Part shown: positions 19,252-33,637 of the stretch, one piece after another
How the letters are laid out: every line of letters begins with the position of its first letter
Position numbering within the stretch: the stretch's first letter is position 1
Assembly (NCBI GenBank): GCA_036276695.1
Contig: DASUOI010000030.1
Location: 1-46,400, forward strand
DNA length: 46,400 nucleotides
Source of the DNA: Candidatus Saccharimonadales bacterium
Lineage (GTDB): Bacteria > Patescibacteriota > Saccharimonadia > Saccharimonadales > 2-12-FULL-41-12
Reading direction: 5' to 3'
Program-made: the position numbers and the translations under genes
Notes under the pieces: generated by a model
Seen by the model: the letters and a program-made list of their open reading frames with translations, nothing else
Told to the model about the DNA's origin: nothing
Databases searched by the model: none

Positions 19252-20883
19252 TCAGCTTTGAGCCTCAAGGTAGCCTTCGCTCTCTAGGTGTAGGACTATC
19301 TGGTTGGCTAACTCGTCAACATCATATTTCTGCGTGTCCAAAGTAATGTCCGCGTCAGCCGGTTCTTCATACGGGTCGGATATGCCAGTGAAGTGTTTTA
19401 TCTTTCCTGCTCTTGCCGCTTTATATAACCCTTTTCTATCGCGCCTTTCACACTCTTCTAACGAAGTATCTACATGCACCAGCAGAAAGCCTCCACCGAC
19501 TGACTGGATAGTTTGTTTTATTTCTTTTCTGACCTTGTCATACGGCGCAATCGGCGCGCATATGGCTATCCCGCCATGTTTGGATATCTCGCTGGCCACA
19601 TAGCCTATCCTGCGCACATTGATATCCCGATCTTTTTTAGAAAATCCTAATTCGCTGGATAAATTCTTACGCACTACATCCCCGTCCAGCAAGGTAACTG
19701 TGCGACGTCCCAGCTCCATCAGCTTGACCATCACGGCATTGGCTACCGTAGACTTGCCGGCCCCAGAAAGACCGGTGAAGAACACTGTGAAGCCTTTCTC
19801 ATATCTTGGTTTATGTGTCTTTTGTAGTTCTACCGCTACTTCCGGATAAGTAAACCAGCTCGGCAGGCCCTTGCCGTCTGAAAGCAAGGCTCTCAGTTCT
19901 GTTCCTGATAGGCTCATAGGCTCCATGCCCTCTGGCACTTCTTCTATAGGCATGTATCTCTCAAGCTCTCTTACGTAAACCATCATCTTAAACGGCACCA
20001 CTTCAACGCCGACTTCCTTGCTGTATTTTTCTGCCAATTGCTGAGCGTCATATGGGCCGTAAAAATCCTCGCCCTTAGAGTTTTTGCCCGGTCCGGCATG
20101 GTCACGCCCAACTATAAAGTGAGTCACTCCATAATTTTTGCGAATTATCATATGCCATAGCGCCTCCCTTGGCCCGCCCATGCGCATAGCTAACGGGAGC
20201 AGGGATATCATGGCCGTACCCTGCGGGAACTTTTTTATAACTTCTTGGTAGACCCTCACTCGGGTGTAGTGGTCCACATCTCCCGGTTTGGTCATGCCGA
20301 CGACCGGGTGTATAAGCAAGCTTGCCTCCGTTTGTTTTGACGCCCGTAGAGCCAGCTCTACGTGCGCCCTGTGCATAGGATTCCTTGTCTGAAAGGCAAC
20401 TATTTTTGTCCACCCCATTTTCTTAAAGTGCTCTTTTAGCTGTTTAGGAGTGTAGCGGTGTTCGGTAAAGTCATAATGCGTAGGTAGCTCTTTAGCTTCC
20501 AGCTTCCCGCCTACGTAATACTCCCCGGCTTTATTCTTCATGTAGTACACGGCTGGGTGGGCTTCGTCATCTGCTCCAAATACTTGTTCGGCTTCTTTGG
20601 ATTTATCCGGCTTCCACACATCTCCAACCGTCAGGATTGCTAGAACTATCCCTTCTTGGTCACGCAGTTCTACTTTATCGTTCTTTTTTAGGGACTTGGC
20701 TGTTTGCACGTTTACGTCAAGTGTTATCGGCATCGGCCAGAGCTTGCCGCTTTTAAGCCGCATATCTTTACAGACGGATTCATAATCTTCTTTGTTCAAA
20801 AAACCTTCCAACGGTGCAAACCCTCCGTTGGTTATCATTTCAACATCACAAATTTGTCTAGGCGTTAAACTGATTTCTTTCAC
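19252..20883 (-). CDS. Bifunctional sulfate adenylyltransferase / adenylylsulfate kinase (PAPS synthase, Sat-CysC fusion)
   Basis: GTG start with AGGAG upstream. ATP-sulfurylase motifs are 'FQTRNPMHRAHVEL', 'HPVVGMTKPGDVDH' and 'IVGRDHAGPG'. The C-terminal APS kinase has the P-loop 'FFTGLSGAGKSTVA' and 'LDGDVVRKNLSSELGFSKKDRDINVRRIGYVA'. Confidence 0.92.
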   Translation of the reverse strand: MKEISLTPRQICDVEMITNGGFAPLEGFLNKEDYESVCKDMRLKSGKLWPMPITLDVNVQTAKSLKKNDKVELRDQEGIVLAILTVGDVWKPDKSKEAEQVFGADDEAHPAVYYMKNKAGEYYVGGKLEAKELPTHYDFTEHRYTPKQLKEHFKKMGWTKIVAFQTRNPMHRAHVELALRASKQTEASLLIHPVVGMTKPGDVDHYTRVRVYQEVIKKFPQGTAMISLLPLAMRMGGPREALWHMIIRKNYGVTHFIVGRDHAGPGKNSKGEDFYGPYDAQQLAEKYSKEVGVEVVPFKMMVYVRELERYMPIEEVPEGMEPMSLSGTELRALLSDGKGLPSWFTYPEVAVELQKTHKPRYEKGFTVFFTGLSGAGKSTVANAVMVKLMELGRRTVTLLDGDVVRKNLSSELGFSKKDRDINVRRIGYVASEISKHGGIAICAPIAPYDKVRKEIKQTIQSVGGGFLLVHVDTSLEECERRDRKGLYKAARAGKIKHFTGISDPYEEPADADITLDTQKYDVDELANQIVLHLESEGYLEAQS

Positions 20884-20933
20884 GTTTCTCCTTTATTATC
20901 AGTAAACAATTATATACTGTAAAATACATTGTG

Positions 20934-21875
20934 ATGAAACTCTTTGTTCAAATACCCTGTCTTAATGAGGAAGACACTCTTCCCGATGTTTTAGAAACCA
21001 TACCAATAAAAATAGGCGGGATAGATTCCATAGATATTCTAATCATTGATGATGGGTCAACTGATAAAACTATAGAAATCGCTAAAAAACATGGCGTAAA
21101 GCACTTTGTAATGCACAGGAAGAATCAAGGTTTAGCCAAATCATTTTCCGATGGATTGGATTATTGTTTATCTCACGGTGCAGACATTATTGTTAATACT
21201 GACGGCGATAACCAATACCCCCAACAAGACATCCCAAAATTAGTCCAGCCTATACTAGATAAAAAAGCTGAAATCGTAATAGCCGACAGGCAAACAGACA
21301 AAATTGAACACTTTTCTCCTATCAAAAAATTCTTTCAGAAGTTTGGCAGCTGGGTGGTCAACAAAGCGGCTGGCACAAACCTTCCGGACGCAGCCAGCGG
21401 TTTCCGGGCTTATTCTAAAGAAGCGGCAGTACGAATTAATGTAATCACGACTTTCAGCTACTGCATGGAGACCATTATTCATGCCGGCAACAAGCGCATC
21501 CCGATAGAAAGCGTCAAGATAATTACCAACCCAAAAACTCGGGAGTCTCGCCTGTTTAAAAATATGTGGCAGCATATGTATAAATCCGGGTTGGCTATAA
21601 TCCGAAGCTTCACCATGCACAAGCCTTATGTAATTTTTATGAATTTAGGCTTAGTACTATTTGTTTTGGGCTTAATCCCGTTTATTCGCTACGGAGTTAT
21701 TTATATCTCCGGAGACAGAGGTGAACATATTCAATCTTTGATACTGGGCGTAATACTCTTATTTGCCGCAATGATATCTTTTGCTCTCGGTATAATTGCT
21801 GATTTAATAAGAACAAACAGGATATTGATAGAGGACACCCTAGAAAGAACCAAAAAAATCCAACACAAAAAATAG
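20934..21875 (+). CDS. GT2 polyprenyl-phosphate glycosyltransferase (GtrB/ArnC/Dpm1-like) with 2 C-terminal TM helices
   Basis: 'VQIPCLNEEDTL', 'IIDDGSTDKT' and 'NTDGDNQYP' (DxD) are present, with two hydrophobic helices at the C-terminus. An alternative GTG start lies at 20931. Confidence 0.8.
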   Translation: MKLFVQIPCLNEEDTLPDVLETIPIKIGGIDSIDILIIDDGSTDKTIEIAKKHGVKHFVMHRKNQGLAKSFSDGLDYCLSHGADIIVNTDGDNQYPQQDIPKLVQPILDKKAEIVIADRQTDKIEHFSPIKKFFQKFGSWVVNKAAGTNLPDAASGFRAYSKEAAVRINVITTFSYCMETIIHAGNKRIPIESVKIITNPKTRESRLFKNMWQHMYKSGLAIIRSFTMHKPYVIFMNLGLVLFVLGLIPFIRYGVIYISGDRGEHIQSLILGVILLFAAMISFALGIIADLIRTNRILIEDTLERTKKIQHKK

Positions 21876-21911: not shown

Positions 21912-23129
21912 CTAAGACTTGGAAACGATTGTTTCAACTTGGCGGGAAGCGCTTTTTTTGACTGCGGGTAGATGTTTTTTTATAGCGGTGCTAATTTTCT
22001 GCTGGTCTTTAGATACATTTTCGAATGCTGCGTGCAAGGCTTTTTGATCAAGATTTTTAGAATCAAGCGCTGACTCTTTAAGACCGAACATGTCCATAAT
22101 TTCAGCGTATTTATGACTCCAGCCCAACACTAGCGGGGGCGTTCTCATACTAAGTGCTGCTATCATGGCATGGAAGCGTGATGTTACGGCTATATCGGCC
22201 TTTCCGATAATATGTCGGAGTTGCTGGGCTGAGAGCTCATCGTCAATGAAGGTAAAGTTTTTGTTATCTATACCTTTGGAAATATCCCGGCAGACAGGTA
22301 AATCGTTATTGTGCCGGGAATCACGGCCTTTACGTGCGCTATAGGCCATCAATAATACTTTATAGTCGCGCTCTAGAAGATATTTTATAAAGTCTCGGTT
22401 GTAACCTATATAATCTTCACCGCTCTTTTCAGTTTTCTTGCGAATCACTTCACTGGGCATAACAACAGCTGTCTTATGTTTTAAATCAAAATTGAATCCG
22501 TTTTGCTTGATGATTTGTTCAGCATGTTTTGCTTCTTCCTTGCTAGTTTCCATTAAAAAAGCGTAGTCGGTAGATTCTATGACATTCTTTAAGCCTAACT
22601 CCTTTAGATGCTTATAAGTCTGAGCGCCGCGGGCACAGATGGTGTCCACGTGTGGCAAGAGTAACTTAGCCGTAAATTTGTTTATCCAGGTATTGAACGG
22701 CCCCATGGCTTGGGAACATTTAATAACTCTGGTATTAGTAAAGATTCCCGGCAATATGGTTGCCACATTATAGATTAAAAATTTGGCCCGCCCGTCAACA
22801 AACGTTATACCGCCCTCATCCAGTAATACGTCAGCTTCAGCTAATGCTCTTATGTGCTTTTGTCGGCGGAGCAAAGGCCTTAGCGGTGGCAGAATCTTAT
22901 AAAGTAAAGCAAGCGGGTTTAGAACAAGTCCTAAGAATAACGGCTTTGCTGAGAGCAACTCAACCTTTTTATAATTATTGAATCTTCTATCATCCTCAGG
23001 ATATACGGTAAAGACAGAAAAAGTTGTCTTTGGGTCTTTAGCTGTTATCGTCTGGATAGACGCCTCCAGCATGGAGGCAGCACCCTTATTACCGGAAAAA
23101 GTAGAGCCGATTATTGCTATTTTCCTCAC
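21912..23129 (-). CDS. Polysaccharide pyruvyl transferase family protein (WcaK/CsaB-like)
   Basis: 'IAIIGSTFSGNKGAASMLE' is the N-terminus. 'VTSRFHAMIAALSMRTPPLVLGWSHKY' is the conserved C-terminal motif of PS_pyruv_trans. The GTG start overlaps the upstream TGA (GTGA). Confidence 0.8.
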   Translation of the reverse strand: MRKIAIIGSTFSGNKGAASMLEASIQTITAKDPKTTFSVFTVYPEDDRRFNNYKKVELLSAKPLFLGLVLNPLALLYKILPPLRPLLRRQKHIRALAEADVLLDEGGITFVDGRAKFLIYNVATILPGIFTNTRVIKCSQAMGPFNTWINKFTAKLLLPHVDTICARGAQTYKHLKELGLKNVIESTDYAFLMETSKEEAKHAEQIIKQNGFNFDLKHKTAVVMPSEVIRKKTEKSGEDYIGYNRDFIKYLLERDYKVLLMAYSARKGRDSRHNNDLPVCRDISKGIDNKNFTFIDDELSAQQLRHIIGKADIAVTSRFHAMIAALSMRTPPLVLGWSHKYAEIMDMFGLKESALDSKNLDQKALHAAFENVSKDQQKISTAIKKHLPAVKKSASRQVETIVSKS

Positions 23130-24061
23130 GTAGTATTACCTTCCGTACGCTTGAGCAGCAAATAAACTACGGCGGCTAAAATATCCGCTATTGTAGCGTA
23201 AAACCTGCTTACTATAGCTAAAATTACAGCTTGTTCTACGGGTATGTATGCGCTGGCAAACAAAACTATTACGGCTTCTCTTACGCCAAGACCGCTTGGA
23301 ACAAATATGGCCAGGACACCGACTATTCCTGCTAACACATAGAGAGAGCCAAAAACTATATATTGCGAAGCTGATATGTTGATCAGTGATTCAGCCACAA
23401 ATACAAACGCGGCACCGTTTATGATCCGGGGAATAATGAACAAAAGAAAGTATTTGATATTATCTTTGCTGTTTAACATCTCCTGTTGGCTTAGCTTTTG
23501 TTTTTTAGCCAGCTTAAAGAAAAAGTTTATAGCTTTAGTAAAAAACCAAGGGCTTAAAACAATAGCTACGAATGGTATGGATGCCAAAAGTGGAAGGAAT
23601 AAAGTTCCTCCTTCGCTGAATTTATTGCCTAAGGCAATAAACAAAATAGGAATGGTCGGTACTGTGGAAGCTAAAAGTAAGAATACATTTTCATAAACAA
23701 ACGAGGCTGTTATTTTTTTGCCATCAAGCTTTCTCTGTCTGCCCCAGGCAATTTTATTAATCAGCGAGCCAGCTTGTCCTGGTATATATTTTAGTAGCCA
23801 CGAAGCCAAATGCACCCTTATTGCTTCTCTAATTGGTATCTGGGCTTTGGTTAGCTTATCAACTATTTTCCCCCATAGTATTCCGGAAGATACTATTGAT
23901 AACACATACAAAATAACCGCTATAACTATTAAAAGATCCGGTTTTAAGCTAACCTCGCCTAGGTTGTTCCAGTTATTTTGCAAAGTTTTAGCAAAGAAGA
24001 ATATGACAACTGCCACTATAGCCCACGAAAAGAGCGTTTTATACAGTTTCAAGTATTTCAT
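23126..24061 (-). CDS. Flippase-like membrane protein (LPG_synthase_TM / UPF0104, MprF-flippase-domain family)
   Basis: 311 aa with about 8 TM helices. 'IPGQAGSLINKI' and 'FVPSGLGVREAVIVL' match the conserved P-x-G-G-x-G-x-RE signature. ATGA overlap with the nitroreductase gene. Confidence 0.65.
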   Translation of the reverse strand: MKYLKLYKTLFSWAIVAVVIFFFAKTLQNNWNNLGEVSLKPDLLIVIAVILYVLSIVSSGILWGKIVDKLTKAQIPIREAIRVHLASWLLKYIPGQAGSLINKIAWGRQRKLDGKKITASFVYENVFLLLASTVPTIPILFIALGNKFSEGGTLFLPLLASIPFVAIVLSPWFFTKAINFFFKLAKKQKLSQQEMLNSKDNIKYFLLFIIPRIINGAAFVFVAESLINISASQYIVFGSLYVLAGIVGVLAIFVPSGLGVREAVIVLFASAYIPVEQAVILAIVSRFYATIADILAAVVYLLLKRTEGNTT

Positions 24062-25143
24062 TTACCTATTTTGTTATAGGTTCTCAGCACATCCAAAGAT
24101 TTCTTTTGGGAATAAGCCACATACCCTTCCGGATCTGCATAACCTAAAGCTATCAACATAATCGGTCTTTCGTCCGGTGATAAACCTAATGTTTTTTGCA
24201 TCTTTGCTTCAAGGGGTTCAAAATCTGGCCAGTTTATTGAGCTTGAAGCCAGCCCTAGCGTCTCAAGCGCGTACATAAAAGGCATAACGGACAAAGCTGA
24301 ATCCACGTATATTAAATGTCTATCCCTTGGGCTAAAGTAATTCTCCTGCTTGCCTACAACCACTATGATCGTAGGTATATTGTCTCTATACCCAGCAGCG
24401 CCGAAAGGTATGGCGGCAACCTTCTTAACAAGTTTTGGGTCATCATATATTTTAAATTCGTAAGGCAGTCGATTGCAGGCCGACGGTGACTGTTCGGCTA
24501 CTAACAAGGCTTTATCTATAAGTTCTCTGGGTACCGGTTTTTGTTTGAACCATCGTACCGAGCGTCTTTGGTGCGATAACTCTAATAAGTCTTCATATTT
24601 AATCGGACTTTTTGGGTTTCCTCTTTTATAAGGCTTCTTGTCTATATCTTTGGGGGCAAAATCAATTTTTTTAAATTGATCGTGCAGTTTACTTATTGCT
24701 TTATCTTCATCTGAAACCTTTGAAAAGTATTCAGTCAATACATTTTGGGCCCATATAAGTTCGCTAATATCTACGCCGCTGTCATCATTCTTATAATCCC
24801 TGAGTGCCTTTTCATAAAACTCCACGGTTTCACCTATGTAGTCTTTAGCAAAAACCTTTCTTCTGGGTCGCATCAGCAAACCCTTTTCCAAGCGATGCGT
24901 GTTACGGCGGAGTTCGGAGCGGCTTTTTCTTTGCTTGTTCAGATTCTTATAATAATTTTTTCGTCCGTGTAAAACTGCGTATTGCTCCCGCGAAAAGCTA
25001 AAGAATCCAACCCAATGATACACAACGCTTGATAAGCGGCTGAAGCTGCCTAGTCGGGTAATAAATAAAGACAAAGCCTCATACGTTTTTCGTATCAGCT
25101 TTATAGACAACAGAAATACTACGAGTTTCTTGAGTTTTTTCAT
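24058..25143 (-). CDS. Nitroreductase-family flavoprotein with a ~170-aa N-terminal extension
   Basis: 'RRSVRWFKQKPVPRELIDKALLVAEQSPSACNRLPYEF' is the typical FMN nitroreductase N-terminal motif. I chose the ATG at 25143 ('MKKLKKLVVFLL'); the ORF extends to 25239. Confidence 0.7.
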   Translation of the reverse strand: MKKLKKLVVFLLSIKLIRKTYEALSLFITRLGSFSRLSSVVYHWVGFFSFSREQYAVLHGRKNYYKNLNKQRKSRSELRRNTHRLEKGLLMRPRRKVFAKDYIGETVEFYEKALRDYKNDDSGVDISELIWAQNVLTEYFSKVSDEDKAISKLHDQFKKIDFAPKDIDKKPYKRGNPKSPIKYEDLLELSHQRRSVRWFKQKPVPRELIDKALLVAEQSPSACNRLPYEFKIYDDPKLVKKVAAIPFGAAGYRDNIPTIIVVVGKQENYFSPRDRHLIYVDSALSVMPFMYALETLGLASSSINWPDFEPLEAKMQKTLGLSPDERPIMLIALGYADPEGYVAYSQKKSLDVLRTYNKIGK

Positions 25144-25268
25144 ATTACTATGTTGATTAATTATATCAGTTAGGCTTGATCTAGATACTAATTCTTGTTT
25201 TTGGTTGGTTGGTTTATAATAGCGCTGTAATAGAAGCAAGCTGGGATATAGAATTTTAATACTGTTAT

Positions 25269-26075
25269 ATGGGTTTTAGATTTCAAAAAAAATCAAAAGA
25301 TAGTAAGCAAGCACAGGCGCCGATTATTATTTATGGCCCGCCTCGTTCCGGTACCACATATCTGGGAGAAATAGTCAGCCAGCATCCGGAAGTATTCATC
25401 TCCAATGAATATCGAATTTTCACTTGGCTGCACCAATCAACTCATGTTTTGCCCGACATTGACGATATGGTCCTACACTCCCGCAAAGGATTCAAAAAAT
25501 TTATAGATAAAGAAGTGCCCCCTTTGATAAGAAAGTTTTATGCACAAAAACATCCGCACATTAAATACTGGGGCGATAAAAACCCTTTCTACGGAGGAGA
25601 CATCGGGCGGCTTAGAACCATTGCCGAATATTTTCCCGATGCAAAATTCATTAATATTGTTCGCGACGGCCGGGATGTCGTGACTTCGTTAATGAATAAA
25701 AAATGGGAAGACGGCCGACCTTGGGCAGATTTCGACACGGCCCACCAAGTCTGGAACAGCAACATAAAAAACGGACTGGAATTTGCTAAAGAAGCTAAAA
25801 AGAAAAACCATTATCTTATTAAATATGAAGATTTGGTTAAAGATGATTTAAGCGAAGCTAAAAAAATCTTTAAATTTCTAGAGATAGATTGGCGCAAACC
25901 TGTTGAAAAATACTGCCTTCAGCAACAAAAAGAACGAACTATTGTGAGCAAGCCTGTAAGGGACATCCGTAAAGATGCTGGCGCCTCCCTGTGGGCAGAT
26001 AAACTTACAAAAACCCAGCAAAAAAAGAGTATGTCTTTACTAAAAGAGAATCTGAAGAACCTAAAATACTTGTAA
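25269..26075 (+). CDS. PAPS-dependent sulfotransferase
   Basis: 5'-PSB loop 'IIIYGPPRSGTTYLGE' and 3'-PB motif 'INIVRDGRDVVTSL'. Length is 268 aa. Confidence 0.8.
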   Translation: MGFRFQKKSKDSKQAQAPIIIYGPPRSGTTYLGEIVSQHPEVFISNEYRIFTWLHQSTHVLPDIDDMVLHSRKGFKKFIDKEVPPLIRKFYAQKHPHIKYWGDKNPFYGGDIGRLRTIAEYFPDAKFINIVRDGRDVVTSLMNKKWEDGRPWADFDTAHQVWNSNIKNGLEFAKEAKKKNHYLIKYEDLVKDDLSEAKKIFKFLEIDWRKPVEKYCLQQQKERTIVSKPVRDIRKDAGASLWADKLTKTQQKKSMSLLKENLKNLKYL

Positions 26076-26107: not shown

Positions 26108-28252
26108 GTGAAATCAGGAAAATTCTCCAGTTTATTTTGGACAATAGTCGGCGGCGTGCCCTTGGCCATACCCGTAGGGATGGCGATCTTCGGAGTAATT
26201 TTAACCGCTTTGCTTCTTGCCCATAATTTTTCCAGCTTATGGATATTTATACTTTCCTCCCTGTTTATAATCCCCGCTATTGTTTATATTTTTAAAATTT
26301 ACGACCACTCAGGGCCCGGCACACAAACCGAGAAAAATCTTTTTAATATTTTAGTCATTATATTCGCCCTTGGGTGGGTTATCTTTAATGCTCAATTCGT
26401 TTCTCAGAACGTTTTTATAGATAGGGACCCGGGATTTTATAACGTAGCCGGCAAATGGCTGGTAGATCATGATTCTACTGATGTTAATGTCGAAATGGTG
26501 TTCGGCAAGAACGAACGTCTGTCTGCCCAAGAAGGCGGCATGTGGTTAAAAGCCGGGCAAGATCTTTCAGGTGATTCGCAAATCATACAGCCGCAGGGTA
26601 TGCATTTGTTTTCAGCGATATTGGGCGTAGCCGGGCGAATTGCTGGCGACCAAGCACTTTTAAGAGCAAACGTGGTTATAGGCGGTATGGCCCTGCTGGC
26701 GTTTTACGGATTTGCCAGGCTGGTAATACGCCCGAGATGGGCTATGCTCGCCACTGCCGTACTTGGGTTCTCCATGCCTATGATTTACTTTTCCAGGGAC
26801 ACTTATACAGAACCGCTGGCGCTGTTATTCGCTTCCGGGGGGCTAGCTTTATTCTTAACAGCTTATAAAAAGCTCCCGGGTGTTAATAAATTTCTATGGA
26901 TAATGTCGGGCTTGTCGGCAGGTGCTACCGGCCTGGCTAGAGCAGACGGCTTTTTTGTATTGATAGCCTGTGTATTGTTTATCGTATTGGCATTATTCCT
27001 TAGAAGAAAGATACAGAAATCTCTTATCCAATCCGGCGCTTTGTTTATGTTCGGAGCGCTAATATCCATTGTGGTCGCTTGGCTGGATATAACAAGACTC
27101 ACTACCGCGTACTACAACGGCCACGGTTCTGAGGTTAGATACCAGCTGCTGCTGTTGGGAATTATTATTATTTTTGGCGGGCTGGCTTATGCCTTAAGAA
27201 AATACATTTACAAATTATTTGCCTCCAGCACTTTTAAAAAAATTAATAACCCCTTGCTTGTCTCAAGCGCTCTATTTGCAGGATTTATAGCTATTGTTAC
27301 AAGACCTTTTTGGATGCGGGAGGTTTCGTTTTTAAAACCATTTACTTACGGTAAATACAGCACGAATCATTCGGTCAGCGTGGTACAGGAAAAACAGGGT
27401 ATTCCTATAGAGCCAAGGAACTACTCTGAAACTACCGTAGATTGGATAGAGTGGTACATAGGCGGCGCGTTGCTTGCTTTGGCTATAGTCGGCCTGATCC
27501 TAATGATATATCGGGTTTATAACAAAAAAAGGTTCGAGTATTTACCAATCTTGATATTAGGGATAATGACATCAACGCTTTTCTTCATCTATCCAAGTAT
27601 AACTGCAGACCATATATGGGCGGACCGGCGATTCCTGCCAATAATAATCCCTATTTTTATCATTGCCGGGTTTTTTGCCGTCAGTGAAATTTTTGATTTC
27701 TTCATGTCTAAGCTCTCAAAACTACATACGGTTTTGATATTTCTTGCCGTAGGTCTATTCCTGGTAATTCCTCCTTTGAAAACTTCAAAGCCACTATTAA
27801 TAAGAGCCGAGAGGAATCAAAATTATGCCGCGGTTGATAAATTTTGCTCTGAGCTGCCAAAAGATTCCGCTGTTTTGTGGCTTGATAGAGGCACTCTAGG
27901 CTTAGCCGCCGTACAGACTACTAGGTCTTATTGCGAAGCTGAGGCCATAGGTTATACGTACAAAAAGAACGGGGAAAATAATAACGACCGTTATATCATC
28001 AAAAAAAGTGATCTTAAATCAGCTTATCAAGAAGCTAAAAAGCGCGGCCTAACTCCGATTATAGTTATGCAGGGCGACAGGAAGATTGAAGTTGAAAAAA
28101 ACATATCCGGAAATCTTACCACGGTAGCAACCACAGCTAACAATATTTTAGAAAGATCTTTGCTCCATCCGCCCACCTATATGCAGATAGAACATAACTC
28201 TATTTTAGTGGGCTACATAAACAGCGACGGAACCGTAAGTCCTCTTTATTAA
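26108..28252 (+). CDS. Large polytopic membrane protein, GT-C-fold glycosyltransferase-like (ArnT/PMT/YfhO-like), with a C-terminal extracytoplasmic domain
   Basis: 714 aa with at least 12 TM helices. The first extracytoplasmic loop has an acidic motif, 'FIDRDPGFYNVAGKWL'. The soluble C-terminal ~130 aa follow. The GTG start is uncertain. Confidence 0.5.
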   Translation: MKSGKFSSLFWTIVGGVPLAIPVGMAIFGVILTALLLAHNFSSLWIFILSSLFIIPAIVYIFKIYDHSGPGTQTEKNLFNILVIIFALGWVIFNAQFVSQNVFIDRDPGFYNVAGKWLVDHDSTDVNVEMVFGKNERLSAQEGGMWLKAGQDLSGDSQIIQPQGMHLFSAILGVAGRIAGDQALLRANVVIGGMALLAFYGFARLVIRPRWAMLATAVLGFSMPMIYFSRDTYTEPLALLFASGGLALFLTAYKKLPGVNKFLWIMSGLSAGATGLARADGFFVLIACVLFIVLALFLRRKIQKSLIQSGALFMFGALISIVVAWLDITRLTTAYYNGHGSEVRYQLLLLGIIIIFGGLAYALRKYIYKLFASSTFKKINNPLLVSSALFAGFIAIVTRPFWMREVSFLKPFTYGKYSTNHSVSVVQEKQGIPIEPRNYSETTVDWIEWYIGGALLALAIVGLILMIYRVYNKKRFEYLPILILGIMTSTLFFIYPSITADHIWADRRFLPIIIPIFIIAGFFAVSEIFDFFMSKLSKLHTVLIFLAVGLFLVIPPLKTSKPLLIRAERNQNYAAVDKFCSELPKDSAVLWLDRGTLGLAAVQTTRSYCEAEAIGYTYKKNGENNNDRYIIKKSDLKSAYQEAKKRGLTPIIVMQGDRKIEVEKNISGNLTTVATTANNILERSLLHPPTYMQIEHNSILVGYINSDGTVSPLY

Positions 28253-28314
28253 ATTACCTGTTTACTTTTTTGACAATAAATGTTATAGTGAAAGAGTTAA
28301 GCACAAAAACAAAA

Positions 28315-28857
28315 ATGTCAAAAACAAAAATAATAATACTATCGATTGTAGCCCTAGCTCTCTTAGGCGGAGGGGTGGCGGCTTATTACTATAGATATGT
28401 TGATAAAGATAAAGCCGAAACTGCAGACACGACGCATAATGATAATATCAATTACTCTCCTCCGACAGAGCAGGAAAAAAAGGAAACCGAAGAACATAAA
28501 AAATCCCTTGCAGAAGATAAGGCTCCAACAAATAATCCTACCGGCAATAGTCCAAGTACCAAGAAAAGTGTAACACCAGTCATAGTCTCTTACGGACAGG
28601 CTTCCGGTAATGTGGAGGTAAGCGCTAGAGTTCCGGGAGTCATTGAGTCAAACGGCACCTGTAAATTAACTTTAACTAAAGGTTCCGACAGCGTATCCCA
28701 AAGCAAGAAAGCCACGCCTAACGCCTCTGATACCAGCTGCGGATTTATATCCATACCGCGCAGTAAGTTAAGTTCTGGTTCATGGTCAGCTAAAGTCAGT
28801 TATTCTTCTTCTAAGGCAGAGGGGGTATCGGCCGCCAAAACGATAAAGGTACAATAA
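28315..28857 (+). CDS. Membrane-anchored extracytoplasmic protein with an S/T/P/K-rich linker and a beta-rich 2-Cys C-terminal domain; unknown function
   Basis: The ATG at 28315 gives 'MSKTKIIILSIVALALLGGGVAAYYY' (signal anchor). The linker is 'SPPTEQEKKETEE...APTNNPTGNSPSTKKSVTP'. I recognise no family. Confidence 0.5.
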   Translation: MSKTKIIILSIVALALLGGGVAAYYYRYVDKDKAETADTTHNDNINYSPPTEQEKKETEEHKKSLAEDKAPTNNPTGNSPSTKKSVTPVIVSYGQASGNVEVSARVPGVIESNGTCKLTLTKGSDSVSQSKKATPNASDTSCGFISIPRSKLSSGSWSAKVSYSSSKAEGVSAAKTIKVQ

Positions 28858-28861
28858 GCAT

Positions 28862-30574
28862 ATGGTAAAAAAAGTCCGCCTACTACTCATCACAGCTCTG
28901 GTTTCTGTCTTATCTTTAGGCGGTTTATTTGTCTTCGTAGAACCTGCTACATCCTCGGCTTTGTCTGGCAGTAAGTTCAGGGCCGGACAAATCATAGACG
29001 ATAATGTTTTCTTTAGAAAACAAACGATGAGCGCCAGCCAGATACAGGCGTTTTTAAACAGCAAGGTCCCGGTTTGTGATACAAACCATCCTAAAACCTC
29101 AAGTTCAAAAGATTCAGGACCACCTTATACATGCCTCAAGTCTTATAGAGATGACATCAAGTCCAAGCCTGCAGAATCGGGCCTGTGCGATGCACTTAGC
29201 GCCCAGTCTAATCAGCTGGCATCTGTAATTATCTACAAAGTCGGTAAGGCCTGCGGCGTCAGCCAGAAAGCCCTGCTTGTACTTCTGCAAAAGGAGCAAA
29301 GCTTGGTAACTGACACTTGGCCGTGGGACATTCAATACAGAAGCGCTACCGGCTACGGTTGCCCTGACAGTGCGCCTTGCGACAGTGAATATTACGGTTT
29401 CTTTAACCAAGTATATAAAGCCGCCTGGCAATTTAAACGCTACGCTAAATTTCCGAATTCATATAACCACAAGAAAGGCTTCACCAGCTTTGTCCAATAT
29501 CACCCCAATGCCGGGTGCGGTGGTAAGAATGTCAATATGAAAACTAAAGCCACTGCGGGACTTTATAACTATACCCCTTATACGCCAAATCAAGCCGCTT
29601 TAAATAACTTATACGGTACGGGAAATAGCTGTAGCGCTTATGGAAATCGCAACTTTTGGAGAATGTATAACGACTGGTTTGGCAGCCCTTATAAGAAGCT
29701 TAATTACAGACTTATAGAATGTGAGGGTGAGAAATATATGGTTGAGAGATGGAAGCCGCGAAAGAGACCGCTTACGGATAATGCTGTGCGTGAATTCGGT
29801 TTTGAAGAATATGAGTTCAACACAGATGATCGTGGTTGTGATTATCCAGCTTATTCAAACGCATTGGACACTATTGTCCGCTCCAGAGATTCAATAAAGA
29901 GCTACATGCTTAATTCAGGAAGTTATCATTACCTACAAAGCAGGTCTGTAGCCCACGCCTGGGGATATGTTGATATTTACGATAATAGAGACCTGAAACC
30001 ACGGCTGGACGGCGACACCATAGATGATTTTGAACTTCCAGGCAAAACTCCGCGTCTAGCAGAGTCTGCAAATACCGGCAAAGTTTATTTACTTAGCGAA
30101 GGCAAAATTTACCATATAAGTGGTACGCCCTCCTCAGTGGCAACTTTAAGGTTAGTGAGAGGCAACGGTAACATACCAATGAAAACTTTCTCTGGCGAAC
30201 ATTTAAGCTACCTTAAGACTAACAATGGCGAAGGCGTCAGTATTGTTTCCGGGTTCCGCGTCAATGAATCTGCATGGTATCTTTTTGACTACGGGAAGGT
30301 CAGAAGAGTCAGTACTATGCATTATCCCAACAGGTGGAATGTCTCTGGCGTGTTTGAAGGTCCCGATCTGGCTTCAGACACAGCAAAGTACTTTAACCCG
30401 CGCGAAGGCTTAGGCAAAGGCTTCCGCAAAGGAGACAGCTATTACATAGTCGCTTCAGGTGGAGATGTATTGTCCACAACTAACTTCCCTACGGCTTACC
30501 GTTGGGGCGTCACTAAAGAGGTTGAGGTTACAAACTTATTTAAAAACAACGTGCAGACGCTGAACTCACCATAG
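28862..30574 (+). CDS. Secreted protein with a conserved Cys-containing N-terminal domain and C-terminal beta-hairpin-like repeats; unknown function
   Basis: N-terminal signal or TM segment. 'FRAGQIIDDNVFF...MSASQIQAFLN' and 'LLVLLQKEQSLVT...GYGCPDS.PC...YYGFFNQVY' form a module I recall from uncharacterised Gram-positive wall-associated proteins. The C-terminus has repeated 'GKVYLLSEGKIYHIS', 'AWYLFDYGKVRRVS' and 'DSYYIVASGGDVLS' units. Confidence 0.5.
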   Translation: MVKKVRLLLITALVSVLSLGGLFVFVEPATSSALSGSKFRAGQIIDDNVFFRKQTMSASQIQAFLNSKVPVCDTNHPKTSSSKDSGPPYTCLKSYRDDIKSKPAESGLCDALSAQSNQLASVIIYKVGKACGVSQKALLVLLQKEQSLVTDTWPWDIQYRSATGYGCPDSAPCDSEYYGFFNQVYKAAWQFKRYAKFPNSYNHKKGFTSFVQYHPNAGCGGKNVNMKTKATAGLYNYTPYTPNQAALNNLYGTGNSCSAYGNRNFWRMYNDWFGSPYKKLNYRLIECEGEKYMVERWKPRKRPLTDNAVREFGFEEYEFNTDDRGCDYPAYSNALDTIVRSRDSIKSYMLNSGSYHYLQSRSVAHAWGYVDIYDNRDLKPRLDGDTIDDFELPGKTPRLAESANTGKVYLLSEGKIYHISGTPSSVATLRLVRGNGNIPMKTFSGEHLSYLKTNNGEGVSIVSGFRVNESAWYLFDYGKVRRVSTMHYPNRWNVSGVFEGPDLASDTAKYFNPREGLGKGFRKGDSYYIVASGGDVLSTTNFPTAYRWGVTKEVEVTNLFKNNVQTLNSP

Positions 30575-30619: not shown

Positions 30620-31591
30620 ATGAGTTCAAACCACCCGACTGTTTCCATTGTTGTATTAAACTGGAATGGCAAAAAGTTTATTGATCCTTTTGTTGAATCT
30701 TTTAAGAAGCTCAATTACCCTTCGGATAAACTTGAGTTAATATTTACTGACAATGATTCGTCTGATGGTTCGGTTGAGTATATAAAGAAAAAATATAAAA
30801 GCCTAAAACAACTTAAGGTTATTCAAACTGGCGGAAATTACGGTTACGCAGGCGGTAATAACCGTGGTATGAAGCATGCCACAGGAGATTATGTCCTGGT
30901 TTGCAATAACGACCTCATACTTGACCCTAAGCTTGTAGATGAGCTTGTGAAAGAAGCTAAGTCAAAGTCATCCGCTATTACCGTGCCTAAGCTTATGTTT
31001 TTAAACAAGCCGGGCTATATAAACAATGCCGGGTCTATGCTTGAAGCAAATAACATCTGGCCTGTTAAAGAAAGAGGCTTTGACCAGAAAGATTCAAAAG
31101 AGTTCGAGAAAACGGTAGAAATAACCGCTTTTTGCGGGGCCTGTGTGCTGTTTGAGCGCAGATTTCTTGAGGATGTCGGTTTGTTCGATGGCAAGTTCTT
31201 TATGTATTTTGAAGATGGAGATTTATCATGGCGCGGTCAAAAATCGGGGTATAAATATTACATTGCCCCAAAAGCGCTTGCCTTTCACGAACATACCGGT
31301 ACAAGCAAGGAAGGATCGCCTCTTTTTAACTACTATGTGGGGAGAAACCGCTTGTTGATACTGATGAAAAATGCTAAGTTTAGAGTCGTTTTCAAAGCTT
31401 GGCTGGTCGTACTGCACAACCAGTTGTATGTAAAAGTTAGAAAGTTTCTACGCTCTGTCATACGAAAAAATAACCGCAAAGAAAACGGAAAGGACCTCTT
31501 GTTGGGAATTAAAGTAGTAGCCTCCGCCCTTCTTTTTGCGCCATATTGTTATCTAAAGCGCTGGAAACTACTCCCTGAGGAAAAACTATGA
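30620..31591 (+). CDS. GT2 glycosyltransferase (rhamnosyltransferase-like, WbbL-type)
   Basis: 'VSIVVLNWNGKKF', 'TDNDSSDGS', 'NYGYAGGNN' and 'FMYFEDGDLSWR' fit the GT2_7-type pattern. Confidence 0.85.
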   Translation: MSSNHPTVSIVVLNWNGKKFIDPFVESFKKLNYPSDKLELIFTDNDSSDGSVEYIKKKYKSLKQLKVIQTGGNYGYAGGNNRGMKHATGDYVLVCNNDLILDPKLVDELVKEAKSKSSAITVPKLMFLNKPGYINNAGSMLEANNIWPVKERGFDQKDSKEFEKTVEITAFCGACVLFERRFLEDVGLFDGKFFMYFEDGDLSWRGQKSGYKYYIAPKALAFHEHTGTSKEGSPLFNYYVGRNRLLILMKNAKFRVVFKAWLVVLHNQLYVKVRKFLRSVIRKNNRKENGKDLLLGIKVVASALLFAPYCYLKRWKLLPEEKL

Positions 31592-32796
31592 AGAAAATCG
31601 GTATTTATAACGAGTACATAGACGCAAAAGGTGGTGGCGAGAAAGTCTGTCTTGCTTTGGCTGAAGCTCTTTCCAAGAAATATGATGTTAGTATTGTCTC
31701 CCCTAAGGAAGTTAATCTTGATGAGCTAGAAGAATATTTTAATCTGGATTTAAGTAAAGTTAAGCTGGATGTTATATCAAGAAGAACCTTAACGGCAAAA
31801 ATTGTAGACAGGTTGTTATTACCGGGTGGTTTGAAGGCATTAATAAAAGACTACAGATATTTTAAGATCATCAAACAGAAAAACTTTGATATTTTTGTAA
31901 ATAACACTCATCAAAGCAACCTACCAAACCCAGCTAACAAAGGCATATACATGTGTATGTTCCCTCAGAGACTGGAGGGAGAACCAACTGACAATACAAT
32001 TAAAAAAATTTATAGATTTTTTATAAGAATGCTTTATAGAGTCTTTTTATTTAAAGGACGTAGGCATGCCATAGATACATATGATCTTATTACAGCCAAT
32101 TCTAAATATACCCAAGGTTATATAAAAAAATACTGGAACAAAAAGAGTGAAATCCTCTACCCTATTTGCGATTCCATGAAAAATAGTGAAAAAAAGCAAA
32201 AGATAATACTAAATGTAGGCAGGTTCTTCGGTGATAGAGACTTAGTGCACCATAAAAGACAGGATTTTTTATTAAAGTCTTTCATAGAATCTGATCTGCA
32301 TAAGTTAGGCTGGGAACTACATTTTGCTGGGAGCGTAGAAGAAAACGCCAAAGCCCTGAAATATATACTTGATTAGCAAAAAAAAGCTAGAGTGTATCCC
32401 GTTTATTTTCATTTTGACTGTTTCTACAGTGAACTCAAGTCACTATTTAATAAGGCCTTTATATATTGGCATGCTACAGGTTATGGTTCCGACCCTGATG
32501 AATACCCGGAAAAGCAAGAACATTTTGGAATAACCACCGTAGAGGCAATGTCTGCCGGTTGTATACCCGTAGTTATTGATTCCGCCGGCCAGCAGGAAAC
32601 CGTGAGCCATGCAGAAAACGGATTCCTCTGGAATAGTAAAAACGAGTTGATCAAATACACTAAAAAAGCTATTAATTTAAACGCTCCTGAAGCTAAGAAG
32701 ATTCACGGCAACGGCCAAACCGTAGTGAAAAAATTTAACAAGGACACGTTCACAAAAAACACGGAAGGTATATTTTCAAAACTGACTAGAACTTAA
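31588..32796 (+). pseudogene. GT4 glycosyltransferase interrupted by one in-frame TAG (32374-32376), either a pseudogene or a split gene
   Basis: ORFs 31588-32376 and 32392-32796 are in the same frame. The N-terminal half has 'IGIYNEYIDAKGGGEKV'. The C-terminal half has 'EHFGITTVEAMSAGCIPVVIDSAGQQETVSHAENGFLW' (EX7E). Together they make one complete GT-B enzyme of about 400 aa. Confidence 0.7.
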
Positions 32797-33637
32797 AGTC
32801 TACTCTGGGTCTTGCGCCTTTTGCCACATACACATATTTAAGTATGGTTCTTTTTGAGGCGCCGCATTTGTTTGTGCAGGTCGCCGTAATTCTATATCTC
32901 TGTTTGGCGCTTCCACACTGCCCGGCCGCCAGATTAATAATTTTGTAGTAATTCTTGCTACCGCCACTAGTAAGCTTGCTGGCAGATGCAGAGAAGCCTT
33001 GGACACCGCATGCTGAACCTGCTAAGTACGGAAAAGCGCGGAATTTGAGATTTGAGGGGTTAATAGCCTTATTTTTGTATCTAACGTAGCCGTTTACATC
33101 TCCTGTGTTGCCATTATATGTAAACGATGTGGGCAAGCGCATAGGAAAATTATTGATCACCCCTGCTTTGACTTTTCTGTTGTGGTCAGCCGCTCCGCCC
33201 AAATATGTATAGTTCGTTGCCCCGTTCTCATCCTTCGGATAAACTTCAATCCACGCTGTTTTAACTTTTGATGAAACACACAGCCCATAGGTTTGGTCGA
33301 GTACTGTAGCAGATCCCGGCTGAGAGAGACTTGGATTTACCGTGATCGTGTGTGAATATCCGGAAGTTGTTTTGCGATTGCCGGCAGGGCCAACTTTCTT
33401 TTTGTTGGAATTTAAAAGGTCAATGCCGATAAAGGCTTTGGTCGACCAGTTATTATAGTCGCCACCGTAAGCCTTTATTGATCCTCTTATTGCCGTGGGC
33501 CTGGAGGAAGAGCATCCTGAAGCAATAGCTGTTACTTTACCCGTACTATTGTTAACAGCCACTAGTAAAGAAGCTGTAAAGATGAAAATGGTGCCAGTAA
33601 TTAGAATTTTTGTTTTTGTAATGTTTAGTTTTTTCAT
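32786..33637 (-). CDS. Secreted Cys-containing beta-rich protein, unknown function
   Basis: The N-terminal signal or anchor is 'MKKLNITKTKILITGTIFIFTASLLVAV'. There are 9 Cys residues, and the sequence is rich in G/S/T/N/K/Y. I recognise no family. Confidence 0.5.
   Translation of the reverse strand: MKKLNITKTKILITGTIFIFTASLLVAVNNSTGKVTAIASGCSSSRPTAIRGSIKAYGGDYNNWSTKAFIGIDLLNSNKKKVGPAGNRKTTSGYSHTITVNPSLSQPGSATVLDQTYGLCVSSKVKTAWIEVYPKDENGATNYTYLGGAADHNRKVKAGVINNFPMRLPTSFTYNGNTGDVNGYVRYKNKAINPSNLKFRAFPYLAGSACGVQGFSASASKLTSGGSKNYYKIINLAAGQCGSAKQRYRITATCTNKCGASKRTILKYVYVAKGARPRVDFKF

What the first reader, a model, noticed from the sequence alone, without database searches (positions are those of the whole stretch)
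21912..25143. Translationally coupled triad: nitroreductase-like flavoprotein, MprF-type flippase-like protein and pyruvyl transferase
The three minus-strand genes are fused by ATGA and GTGA overlaps at 24058-24061 and 23126-29, so their stoichiometry is probably coupled. A pyruvyl (enolpyruvyl/ketal) transferase next to a flavin reductase recalls MurA/MurB chemistry, in which enolpyruvyl transfer is followed by reduction to a lactyl ether. The flippase-like protein could translocate a polyprenyl-linked intermediate in the absence of a Wzx.

The nitroreductase also has a ~170-aa basic N-terminal extension of unknown function. The role of nitroreductase-family proteins in polysaccharide loci is, as far as I know, unresolved.
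Basis: inference. Interest (0 to 1): 0.6.

Follow-up and report, generated by a model that had tools for sequence, protein, structure and literature searches.

The report
Lipid-linked sugar lactyl/pyruvyl decoration cassette
The three overlapping genes are real and belong to a widely conserved, uncharacterised cassette that probably adds a phosphoenolpyruvate-derived acid group (likely a lactic-acid ether) to a lipid-carried sugar, flips it across the membrane and attaches it to the cell-surface polysaccharide.

Summary
Observation confirmed. Three minus-strand genes (extended nitroreductase-fold protein, UPF0104/LPG_synthase_TM membrane protein, WcaK-like pyruvyl transferase) are joined by ATGA and GTGA overlaps.

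All 80 genomes fetched by the nitroreductase have the pyruvyl transferase within 7 kb. 59 keep the same gene order. In 201 Microbacteriaceae genomes the two genes co-occur 12:2:3:184.

- Natural fusions exist: PyrT::nitroreductase, PyrT::UPF0104 and UPF0104::DUF2079.
- A GtrA-like protein replaces UPF0104 in three loci.
- The 185-aa N-terminal extension is a conserved domain (HxxEKG motif). Distant relatives next to pyruvyl transferases in E. coli, Enterococcus and Rhodobacterales share it.

Klebsiella K22/K37 capsule loci alone carry a "nitroreductase" plus a pyruvyl transferase. They are not pyruvylated, and K22 contains a 4-O-(1-carboxyethyl) sugar. This supports the lactyl-ether idea.

Nothing is shown biochemically, and the reductase is facultative (lost at least twice).

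The scan noted this module before on other DNA.

Verdict: a new variant of three-component glycan decoration systems; moderately high interest.

The parts
20931..21875 (+). GT2 glycosyltransferase of the polyprenyl-phosphate sugar synthase type, with two C-terminal TM helices. It is the fourth conserved member of the cassette, convergent with the triad.
   Evidence: PF00535. NCBIfam best hits are AglJ, PpgS, PgfS and Dol-P hexose transferase. Best PDB hits are DPMS 5mlz, ArnC 9bhc/8vxh and GtrB 5ekp, the last over residues 3-293. TM helices at 234-252 and 271-289. A homologue of 44-77% identity lies within 7 kb in 64 of 80 loci.
21912..23129 (-). WcaK-like polysaccharide pyruvyl transferase (PyrT, P0003, 405 aa).
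   Evidence: PF04230 E=4.5e-36 over the full profile. Sub-threshold WcaK/CsaB NCBIfam hits. Found within 7 kb of the nitroreductase in 80 of 80 loci. In Microbacteriaceae it forms a discrete clade: every hit scores <=1e-102.
23126..24061 (-). UPF0104 / LPG_synthase_TM membrane protein (P0002, 311 aa, ~7 TM). Presumed flippase for the modified lipid-linked sugar.
   Evidence: PF03706 E=2.6e-18. Seven hydrophobic helices. Present in 60 of 80 loci. Fused to PyrT in P0124 and to DUF2079 in P0125. Replaced by a GtrA-like protein in L023, L026 and L033. The family was predicted to be a glycosylation flippase in PMC5898192.
24058..25143 (-). Extended nitroreductase-fold flavoprotein (P0001, 361 aa). 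Residues 1-185 form a helical domain with an invariant HxxEKG motif; residues 186-361 form a minimal FMN nitroreductase domain.
   Evidence: PF00881. More than 2700 full-length homologues at 55-87% identity. Invariant RRSVR, PSACNRxPY and C-terminal S-KK-R motifs. AF2 model with pLDDT 82. Z=19 to minimal nitroreductases and Z=15.7 to the FbiB C-terminal domain.
25144..25268 (.). Divergent intergenic region between the triad and the sulfotransferase/GT-C operon. This is the presumed promoter region (inferred).
   Evidence: Gene layout. The consensus promoter scan was uninformative.
25269..26075 (+). Sulfotransferase. This is local context and not a conserved cassette member.
   Evidence: PF13469/PF00685. 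No homologue in any of the 80 loci.
26108..28252 (+). 714-aa, 12-TM GT-C-like (PMT_2/ArnT-like) membrane protein. Candidate transferase that uses the flipped lipid-linked sugar.
   Evidence: The protein itself has no Pfam hit. Its homologue L016:4812-6947 hits PF13231 PMT_2 at 27.7 bits. Atlas feature score 0.99 to PMT_2-bearing clusters, and structural TM 0.55-0.61 to PMT/ArnT-like clusters. Homologues lie directly beside the module in L005, L016 and L085.
28270..30574 (+). Two membrane-anchored or secreted proteins (195 and 570 aa) of unknown function that travel with the module in some genomes.
   Evidence: One N-terminal TM helix each. Homologues in 7 and 9 of 80 loci, and in L085.

Best explanation
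The triad is the core of a portable four-to-five-gene glycan-decoration cassette. It works like the Gtr, Arn, PpgS and AglD three-component systems, with two extra chemical steps on the lipid-linked sugar.

Proposed order of events:
1. The GT2 (20931-21875) makes a polyprenyl-phosphate monosaccharide on the cytoplasmic face.
2. The pyruvyl transferase, held at the membrane next to the UPF0104 protein, transfers the three-carbon unit of phosphoenolpyruvate to a hydroxyl of that lipid-linked sugar.
3. The extended nitroreductase-fold FMN enzyme reduces the enolpyruvyl ether with NAD(P)H to a 1-carboxyethyl (lactyl) ether. This is MurA/MurB chemistry done with unrelated folds. Where the reductase is absent, the product would stay a pyruvate ketal or enol ether.
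4. The UPF0104 protein flips the acidic lipid-linked sugar.
5. The GT-C-like 714-aa protein transfers it to the ABC-exported, sulfated, rhamnose-containing surface polymer.

Shown here: the genes, their families, their conserved linkage and the fusions.
Inferred: the substrate, the lactyl product, the flipping and the acceptor.
For: Linkage:
- The nitroreductase family is 55-87% identical over its full length across Saccharimonadales, Actinomycetota, Pseudomonadota, Bdellovibrionota and Bacteroidota.
- PyrT lies within 7 kb in 80 of 80 loci. 59 loci keep the order NTR-UPF0104-PyrT. The GT2 is present in 64 of 80.
- In 201 Microbacteriaceae genomes: both genes 12, NTR only 2, PyrT only 3, neither 184. 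Fisher p=6e-15, but the genomes are not phylogenetically independent.

Physical or functional coupling:
- An 849-aa PyrT::extended-NTR fusion in Paracoccus.
- A 738-aa PyrT::UPF0104 fusion next to a 49%-identical GT2 and a 9-TM protein.
- A UPF0104::DUF2079 fusion.
- A -4 overlap at UPF0104-to-PyrT in 49 of 59 loci.

Flippase role:
- A GtrA-like 4-TM protein (PF04138, E=2e-5) sits between PyrT and NTR where UPF0104 is missing.
- PMC5898192 predicts UPF0104 proteins to be glycosylation flippases, fused to the AglD GT2 and neighbouring PMT/STT3-like genes.

Lipid-linked sugar branch:
- The GT2's best solved relatives are DPMS, ArnC and GtrB, and it has two C-terminal TM helices.
- The 714-aa protein is PMT_2/ArnT-like.

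Chemistry:
- FMN-binding motifs are invariant and the fold is a minimal nitroreductase, Z=19.
- Distant extended NTRs (25-27% identity, same HxxEKG motif) sit beside PyrT genes in E. coli, Pseudorhodobacter, Acuticoccus and E. faecalis glycan loci.
- In Klebsiella, 'nitroreductase' HG127 occurs only in K22 and K37, together with their private pyruvyl transferase WclZ. These types are listed as not pyruvylated, and the K22 capsule contains 4-O-[(S)-1-carboxyethyl]-GlcA.
- In Campylobacter, a proposed glucolactilic acid tracks with a pyruvyl transferase gene.
- From memory, not checked here: the nitroreductase-fold C-terminal domain of FbiB reduces the enolpyruvyl group of dehydro-F420-0 to a lactyl group.
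Against: - There is no biochemical or glycan-structure evidence for any organism that carries this cassette.
- The reductase is facultative. Three of 15 Microbacteriaceae cassettes and the PyrT::UPF0104 fusion locus lack it, and no homologue was found elsewhere in those three genomes. Their PyrTs nest inside reductase-linked clades at two places. So PyrT may make a finished product (a ketal) on its own.
- Known PF04230 enzymes make ketals on lipid-PP-oligosaccharides, not enol ethers on lipid-P-monosaccharides.
- Homology of the Klebsiella HG127 protein to P0001 was not tested.
- A GT-C neighbour could be shown by sequence in only a few loci.
- Some extended nitroreductases (Ruegeria, Rhizobium) have no pyruvyl transferase nearby.
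Confidence: 0.42

Rival explanations
1. The chemistry is the same (pyruvyl transferase plus reductase giving a lactyl ether), but it acts directly on the undecaprenyl-diphosphate-linked main chain or its repeat unit in the cytoplasm. This is what happens in Wzx- or ABC-dependent loci that have only the NTR-PyrT pair. Here the UPF0104 protein would be a membrane scaffold or tether for PyrT, and the GT2 an ordinary chain glycosyltransferase.
For: NTR-PyrT pairs occur without UPF0104 or a Pol-P-type GT2 in E. coli, Acuticoccus, Pseudorhodobacter and E. faecalis loci. Characterised pyruvyl transferases act on lipid-PP-linked oligosaccharides. The window has a complete ABC-transporter pathway with a PGT and many GTs.
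Against: The GT2 keeps 44-77% identity across phyla while the surrounding main-chain genes vary freely. It has the DPMS/ArnC/GtrB architecture with two C-terminal TM helices. UPF0104 is replaced by a GtrA-like protein, not by nothing. UPF0104 is fused to DUF2079, a large predicted membrane protein.
Confidence: 0.22
2. The cassette installs an ordinary pyruvate ketal. The nitroreductase-fold protein does something else: a non-redox structural or regulatory role, substrate delivery through its N-terminal domain, or a redox step on another group such as a keto-sugar.
For: The PF04230 family is known for ketal formation. Cassettes persist without the reductase. The nitroreductase superfamily has many activities, including IYD, BluB, oxidases and enone reductases among the structural neighbours.
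Against: Invariant FMN-site motifs and 68-74% identity of the flavin domain argue for a conserved catalytic role. The PyrT::NTR fusion implies successive steps on one substrate. The Klebsiella types that have an NTR plus a PyrT lack ketals and have a lactyl ether.
Confidence: 0.18
3. The product is not a wall-glycan decoration but an anionic membrane glycolipid: a pyruvylated or lactylated lipid-linked sugar flipped to the outer leaflet. It would tune surface charge, an anionic counterpart of MprF's lysyl-phosphatidylglycerol.
For: UPF0104 is the MprF flippase domain family. The minimal conserved set (GT2, PyrT, UPF0104) needs no transferase. A GT-C neighbour is demonstrable in only some loci.
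Against: The cassette sits inside wall or surface polysaccharide loci in nearly all genomes. Large polytopic proteins are adjacent in 59 of 80 loci by a crude count. A UPF0104::DUF2079 fusion exists.
Confidence: 0.08

Closest known systems
MurA / MurB (UDP-N-acetylmuramate synthesis)
   Same: The proposed chemistry matches: enolpyruvyl transfer from PEP to a sugar hydroxyl, then flavin-dependent reduction of the enol ether to a lactyl ether.
   Different: The folds and families are unrelated: PF04230 rather than an EPSP-synthase-like fold, and an FMN nitroreductase fold rather than the FAD-binding MurB fold. The presumed substrate is lipid-linked rather than a UDP-sugar. The membrane flippase-like partner has no counterpart in MurA/MurB.
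Klebsiella capsule loci K22/K37 (pyruvyl transferase WclZ + 'nitroreductase' HG127; Pan et al. 2015, PMC4616057)
   Same: A pyruvyl transferase paired with a nitroreductase-annotated gene in a glycan locus. The capsule is not pyruvylated, and the K22 capsule carries 4-O-[(S)-1-carboxyethyl]-GlcA.
   Different: These are Wzx/Wzy-dependent capsule loci; no UPF0104 or Pol-P GT2 partner is reported. I could not fetch HG127, so its homology to P0001 and the presence of the N-terminal domain are untested. The pair has not been assigned biochemically.
Three-component glycan decoration systems (GtrA/GtrB/GtrX; ArnC/ArnD/ArnEF/ArnT; PpgS/Rv3632/Rv3779; archaeal AglD with its C-terminal UPF0104 domain)
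   Same: A GT2 of DPMS/ArnC/GtrB type with C-terminal TM helices, a small or polytopic flippase, and a GT-C transferase. The Arn pathway also modifies the lipid-linked sugar before flipping. In AglD the UPF0104 domain is fused to the GT2.
   Different: The in-line modification here is PEP-dependent carboxyethylation or pyruvylation by PyrT, with or without a nitroreductase. The flippase is a stand-alone UPF0104 protein translationally coupled to PyrT. The acceptor and the sugar are unknown.
FbiB C-terminal domain (dehydro-F420-0 reductase; recalled from memory)
   Same: A nitroreductase-fold FMN domain that reduces a PEP-derived enolpyruvyl group to a lactyl group. Structural match to 4xom at Z=15.7 and weak sequence hits at E=0.0014-0.018.
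   Different: It is no closer to P0001 than many other nitroreductases. The substrate is a deazaflavin cofactor precursor. It lacks the HxxEKG N-terminal domain.
Ketal pyruvyl transferases CsaB, WcfO, WcaK, Pvg1p (PF04230)
   Same: Same Pfam family. PEP is the donor, and the characterised bacterial members need lipid-linked acceptors.
   Different: Those enzymes make cyclic ketals and have no reductase or UPF0104 partner. P0003 scores far below the WcaK and CsaB equivalog cut-offs.
MprF (lysyl-phosphatidylglycerol synthase/flippase)
   Same: P0002 belongs to the Pfam family of the MprF flippase domain (PF03706).
   Different: P0002 has no C-terminal aminoacyl-PG synthase domain, and its partners are glycan enzymes rather than a tRNA-dependent lipid synthase.

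Membership tests
Polysaccharide pyruvyl transferase (PF04230) | Full-length match to the family profile above the gathering score | tested here: met
   P0003 scores 125.6 bits (cut-off 25.3) over profile positions 1-280 of 280.
Polysaccharide pyruvyl transferase (PF04230) | PEP-dependent formation of a cyclic pyruvate ketal on a sugar | not testable with these tools
WcaK/CsaB equivalog scores are far below their cut-offs (82 against 399 bits; 67 against 213 bits).
Nitroreductase superfamily (PF00881) | Profile match and the alpha+beta FMN-binding fold | tested here: met
   72.9 bits (cut-off 23.5). AF2 model residues 183-360 align to 3m5k and 3e10 at Z=19.2, rmsd 2.3-2.7 over 167-168 residues.
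Nitroreductase superfamily (PF00881) | Conserved FMN-phosphate and ring-binding motifs (N-terminal RxSxR, PSxxNxQP-like, C-terminal K/R pair) | tested here: met
   R193, R194, S195, R197, P220, A222, C223, N224, R225, P227, S345, K347, K348 and R354 are invariant in 45 homologues. Actual flavin binding was not assayed.
LPG_synthase_TM / UPF0104 (PF03706, COG0392) | Full-length profile match and a polytopic membrane topology | tested here: met
   67 bits (cut-off 33.4) over profile positions 4-300 of 302. Seven hydrophobic helices.
MprF (bifunctional aminoacyl-PG synthase/flippase) | C-terminal aminoacyl-phosphatidylglycerol synthase domain fused to the flippase domain | tested here: not met
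   P0002 is 311 aa with PF03706 only. It is 'MprF-type' only in the sense of the flippase domain.
Polyprenyl-phosphate glycosyltransferases (DPMS / GtrB / ArnC type GT2) | GT-A catalytic domain followed by C-terminal TM helices, with closest relatives among Pol-P sugar synthases | tested here: met
   PF00535. Best NCBIfam hits are AglJ, PpgS, PgfS and DPhHxTase, all below their cut-offs. PDB hits 5mlz, 9bhc and 5ekp, the last over residues 3-293. TM helices at 234-252 and 271-289. The lipid acceptor was not assayed.
GT-C glycosyltransferases (PMT_2 / ArnT-like) | Profile or fold match to a GT-C family | tested here: inconclusive
   The window protein has no Pfam hit at E<=0.01. Its 31%-identical homologue reaches PF13231 at 27.7 bits (cut-off 26.1). 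Atlas feature score 0.99 to clusters in which 17-26% of members carry PMT_2, and structural TM 0.55-0.61 to PMT/ArnT clusters.
Three-component glycan decoration system | Pol-P sugar synthase, flippase and GT-C encoded together | tested here: inconclusive
   All three kinds are adjacent in the window. The GT2 is in 64 of 80 loci and UPF0104 in 60 of 80. A GtrA-like substitute occurs in 3 loci. A GT-C was shown by sequence in only a few loci.
MurA / MurB families | Sequence membership in the EPSP-synthase-like (MurA) or MurB FAD-binding families | tested here: not met
   No such Pfam or NCBIfam hits for P0001 or P0003. Any resemblance is mechanistic only.

The most novel reading that the evidence does not exclude
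The cassette is a complete, horizontally mobile pathway that builds a muramic-acid-like lactyl-ether sugar on a polyprenyl phosphate carrier. On this reading:
- the extended nitroreductase is a new class of enolpyruvyl-ether reductase, a MurB analogue;
- the UPF0104 protein is the first stand-alone MprF-type flippase for a lipid-linked sugar;
- the GT-C enzyme then grafts the acidic sugar onto wall polysaccharides.

The presence of the cassette in a few Saccharimonadales, and its high identity to Actinomycetota genes, would then reflect exchange between these epibionts and their actinobacterial hosts, perhaps to match surface chemistry.
Probability: 0.3. Interest if true: 0.8.

Novelty: new variant of a known kind. 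Interest (0 to 1): 0.62.

Why it matters
Lactyl (1-carboxyethyl) ethers occur on many bacterial surface sugars: E. coli O58, O69, O124, O146 and O150, Klebsiella K22/K37, and probably Campylobacter N-glycans. Yet outside MurA/MurB I found no paper in the searchable library that assigns the enzymes.

This cassette offers a compact, testable candidate: a PF04230 transferase plus an extended nitroreductase, which are sometimes fused.

It also gives a concrete substrate hypothesis for UPF0104/COG0392, one of the largest membrane-protein families without a demonstrated function outside MprF.

Finally, it adds an in-line carboxyethylation or pyruvylation step to the three-component decoration paradigm.

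For the organism, a ~0.7-0.9 Mb Saccharimonadales genome, it shows a large investment in an acidic, sulfated surface polymer.

Tried and rejected
1. Complex prediction of PyrT with the nitroreductase, both given as alignments: score 0.00, no verdict. This is evidence neither for nor against binding.
2. The search for related loci in metagenome contigs with P0003: only one close fragment was returned, so it was useless for reverse sampling.
3. A sample of 301 genomes of the window's own phylum: only the window's own genome has P0001. The module is sporadic there, and the sample could not give co-occurrence statistics.
4. blastn of the triad against 5,426 E. coli genomes: no match. I therefore could not reach the O146, O69, O124 or O58 clusters, and the earlier notes' claim about E. 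coli O146 remains untested.
5. The fold of the N-terminal domain: Foldseek on PDB, the Atlas and VIA-wide matched essentially only residues ~180-360. BmdC and ThcOx rows reach residues 55-76, but with only ~150 aligned residues. The domain was not folded alone, so I make no claim that it is a new fold.
6. Iterative HMM search from the 714-aa protein within the 80 loci did not extend beyond two homologues. The count of loci with proteins of at least 7 TM and 400 aa (59 of 80) is crude and includes acyltransferases.
7. The promoter/terminator scan was uninformative.
8. Ten literature searches found no paper that assigns the reductase or describes this module, and no glycan structure for a cassette-bearing genus.
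9. Apparent ~700-aa 'PyrT' ORFs in high-GC loci are ORF-calling artefacts. The tblastn frames differ, so they are not fusions.
10. No alternative reductase was found beside the reductase-less cassettes.

Full report
**Observation**

The minus strand of 21912-25143 holds three ORFs:
- P0001, 24058-25143, 361 aa.
- P0002, 23126-24061, 311 aa.
- P0003, 21912-23129, 405 aa, with a GTG start preceded by GGAAGG.

Pfam assigns PF00881 to residues ~187-356 of P0001 only. It assigns PF03706 to nearly all of P0002 and PF04230 to P0003. The first 185 residues of P0001 are basic, with pI 9.9.

Four-base overlaps are common in operons and mean little alone.

**Context**

The window is almost entirely a cell-envelope glycan island in a small genome: 709 kb in 56 contigs, 82% complete. 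The closest relatives are Candidatus Saccharimonadales.

Genes found:
- UppP and a Bac_transf initiating transferase.
- GlmS, a CysQ-like phosphatase and UDP-sugar dehydrogenase.
- rmlABCD and a bifunctional PAPS synthase.
- Two sulfotransferases.
- Many GT2/GT4 genes and a second, short pyruvyl transferase.
- A DegT aminotransferase.
- A Wzm/Wzt ABC transporter.
- A Wzy_C/ligase-like protein.

No Wzx-type gene was seen. With an ABC transporter present, none is needed for the main polymer.

**Is the triad conserved?**

P0001 has more than 2700 full-length relatives of ~360 aa at 55-87% identity. They come from Saccharimonadales, Actinomycetota, Lysobacterales, Hyphomicrobiales, Bdellovibrionota and Bacteroidota.

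In 80 genome loci fetched by P0001:
- All 80 have a P0003-like gene within 7 kb.
- 59 keep the order NTR-UPF0104-PyrT on one strand.
- A -4 overlap at the UPF0104-to-PyrT junction is possible in 49 of these 59.

In an even sample of 201 Microbacteriaceae genomes the counts are: both genes 12 (always on one contig, 1-7 kb apart), NTR only 2, PyrT only 3, neither 184. Fisher p is 6e-15, with the caveat that relatives are not independent.

In the window's own phylum the gene was found only in the window's genome among 301 sampled. The module is therefore sporadic and probably horizontally acquired.

The convergent GT2 at 20931-21875 is a fourth conserved member. Homologues of 44-77% identity lie in 64 of 80 loci, most often directly upstream of the nitroreductase. 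Its best solved relatives are dolichol-phosphate mannose synthase, ArnC and GtrB, and it has two C-terminal TM helices. Its best NCBIfam hits are AglJ, PpgS and PgfS. It therefore looks like a polyprenyl-phosphate sugar synthase.

Across the divergent promoter lies a 714-aa, 12-TM protein.
- A homologue of it reaches the PMT_2 (GT-C) threshold.
- Its Atlas neighbours are PMT_2/ArnT-like.
- Homologues sit right beside the module in L005, L016 and L085.

Many other loci hold different large polytopic proteins (DUF2142, DUF7657 or unassigned). I could not show by sequence that these are related.

**Coupling between the parts**

- A Paracoccus plasmid encodes an 849-aa protein in which PF04230 is followed by the extension and the nitroreductase domain.
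- A metagenomic 738-aa protein is PyrT::UPF0104. It lies next to a GT2 that is 49% identical to the window's and next to a 9-TM protein, with no reductase.
- Another protein is UPF0104::DUF2079.
- In three Bdellovibrionota/delta-type loci UPF0104 is absent, and a 132-149-aa GtrA-like protein sits between PyrT and the reductase. This is a non-orthologous replacement by the flippase candidate of classical three-component systems.
- Makarova et al. (PMC5898192) had already predicted that UPF0104/COG0392 proteins are flippases of glycosylation pathways. They noted fusion to the AglD GT2 and neighbourhood with PMT/STT3-like genes.

**The nitroreductase**

The flavin domain is a minimal nitroreductase fold, with Z=19 to 3m5k and 3e10. 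Its FMN-site motifs are invariant.

The N-terminal 185 residues are helical and not membrane-spanning. They carry many invariant polar residues, including R79, R80, N81, H83, E86 and K87.

Relatives at only 25-27% identity align from residue ~65 onward and keep the HxxEKG motif. They lie beside pyruvyl transferases in four loci:
- an E. coli plasmid-borne glycan fragment,
- Pseudorhodobacter,
- Acuticoccus (43% identity),
- an Enterococcus faecalis Wzx-type locus.

The reductase-transferase pair is therefore older and wider than this cassette. Not all extended nitroreductases have such a neighbour; Ruegeria and Rhizobium do not.

**Chemistry**

I found no paper that assigns a function to such a reductase.

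Pan et al. 2015 provide a natural experiment among 79 Klebsiella capsule loci:
- 'Nitroreductase' HG127 occurs only in K22 and K37, next to their private pyruvyl transferase WclZ.
- A 'coenzyme F420 hydrogenase' plus a pyruvyl transferase occurs only in K66.
- The authors list K8, K22, K37 and K66 as the types that have pyruvyl transferase genes but no pyruvylated capsule.

The K22 capsule contains 4-O-[(S)-1-carboxyethyl]-D-glucuronic acid, according to the title of Parolis et al. 1988 as cited.

In Campylobacter, a proposed glucolactilic acid tracks with a pyruvyl transferase gene.

From memory only: the nitroreductase-fold domain of FbiB reduces an enolpyruvyl group to a lactyl group in F420 synthesis.

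It remains correlative, and I could not fetch HG127 to test its homology to P0001.

**Counter-evidence**

- Three of 15 Microbacteriaceae cassettes lack the reductase, and no homologue was found elsewhere in those genomes.
- Their transferases nest within reductase-linked clades at two places.
- The PyrT::UPF0104 locus lacks the reductase too.

So the transferase can evidently make a useful product alone, and the reductase is an optional extra step. Characterised PF04230 enzymes make ketals on lipid-diphosphate oligosaccharides.

**Conclusion**

The best model is a portable decoration cassette:
1. The GT2 makes a polyprenyl-phosphate sugar.
2. PyrT, with or without the reductase, adds a pyruvate-derived (probably lactyl) acid group on the cytoplasmic face.
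3. UPF0104 flips the product.
4. A GT-C enzyme attaches it to the surface polymer.

This is a new variant of three-component decoration systems, and a candidate answer to how non-muramic lactyl ethers are made.

Earlier agents of this scan reached a similar reading on other genomes. I re-derived the linkage, the fusions and the Klebsiella evidence independently here. I did not test their E. coli O146 claim.

Noticed in passing
window 31588-32376 and 32392-32796 (+): A GT4-type glycosyltransferase appears split into an N-terminal Glyco_transf_4 ORF (262 aa) and a C-terminal Glycos_transf_1 ORF (134 aa), 15 nt apart. This could be a frameshift, a pseudogene or a genuine split gene.
   Followed up: no
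window 34633-35463 (+): A second, short pyruvyl transferase (276 aa, matching profile positions 59-276 only) has no reductase or UPF0104 neighbour. It is presumably an ordinary ketal-forming enzyme for the main chain, or a truncated gene.
   Followed up: no
window 28270-30574 (+); L001, L016, L018, L021, L024, L040, L042, L058, L059, L085: A 195-aa membrane-anchored protein and a 570-aa secreted, Cys-containing protein have no Pfam hit. They recur next to the cassette in 7-9 of 80 loci and in L085. Their function is unknown; they may be a wall-associated partner of the decoration.
   Followed up: partly
window 32000-40000: GC falls to 32-38% here, against 45-49% in the first 20 kb. This suggests the glycan island is a mosaic of separately acquired blocks.
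   Followed up: no
window 19252-20883 (-), 11453-12235 (+), 25269-26075 (+), 36416-37288 (-): A PAPS synthase (Sat/CysC fusion), a CysQ-like PAP phosphatase and two sulfotransferases lie within one locus of a ~0.7-0.9 Mb CPR genome. This points to a sulfated surface polysaccharide.
   Followed up: no
L001-L005, L013, L016, L040, L059 versus actinobacterial loci: In the PyrT tree the Saccharimonadales/CPR sequences lie at the base of, or as sister to, the Actinomycetota clade (midpoint root only). The cassette is otherwise rare in the phylum: 1 of 301 genomes. Since Saccharibacteria are epibionts of Actinomycetota (from memory), gene exchange with hosts is a possibility. No rooted test was done.
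   Followed up: partly
L092 (Ruegeria sp. B32 plasmid, NZ_CP081107.1 7712-20638): A 49%-identical extended nitroreductase lies in an inverted duplication with an ATP-grasp (PylC-like) protein and a HAD hydrolase. There is no pyruvyl transferase within 6 kb. This is a different partner set for the same reductase family.
   Followed up: no
L087 (E. coli plasmid p30COLEC-2, NZ_CP070932.1 12045-30905): An IS-flanked fragment of a polysaccharide locus sits on an IncN/IncX2 plasmid. It holds two pyruvyl transferases, an extended nitroreductase, a Wzx-like protein and GT2 genes. It was found in only 3 of 5,426 E. coli genomes, and always on plasmids.
   Followed up: partly
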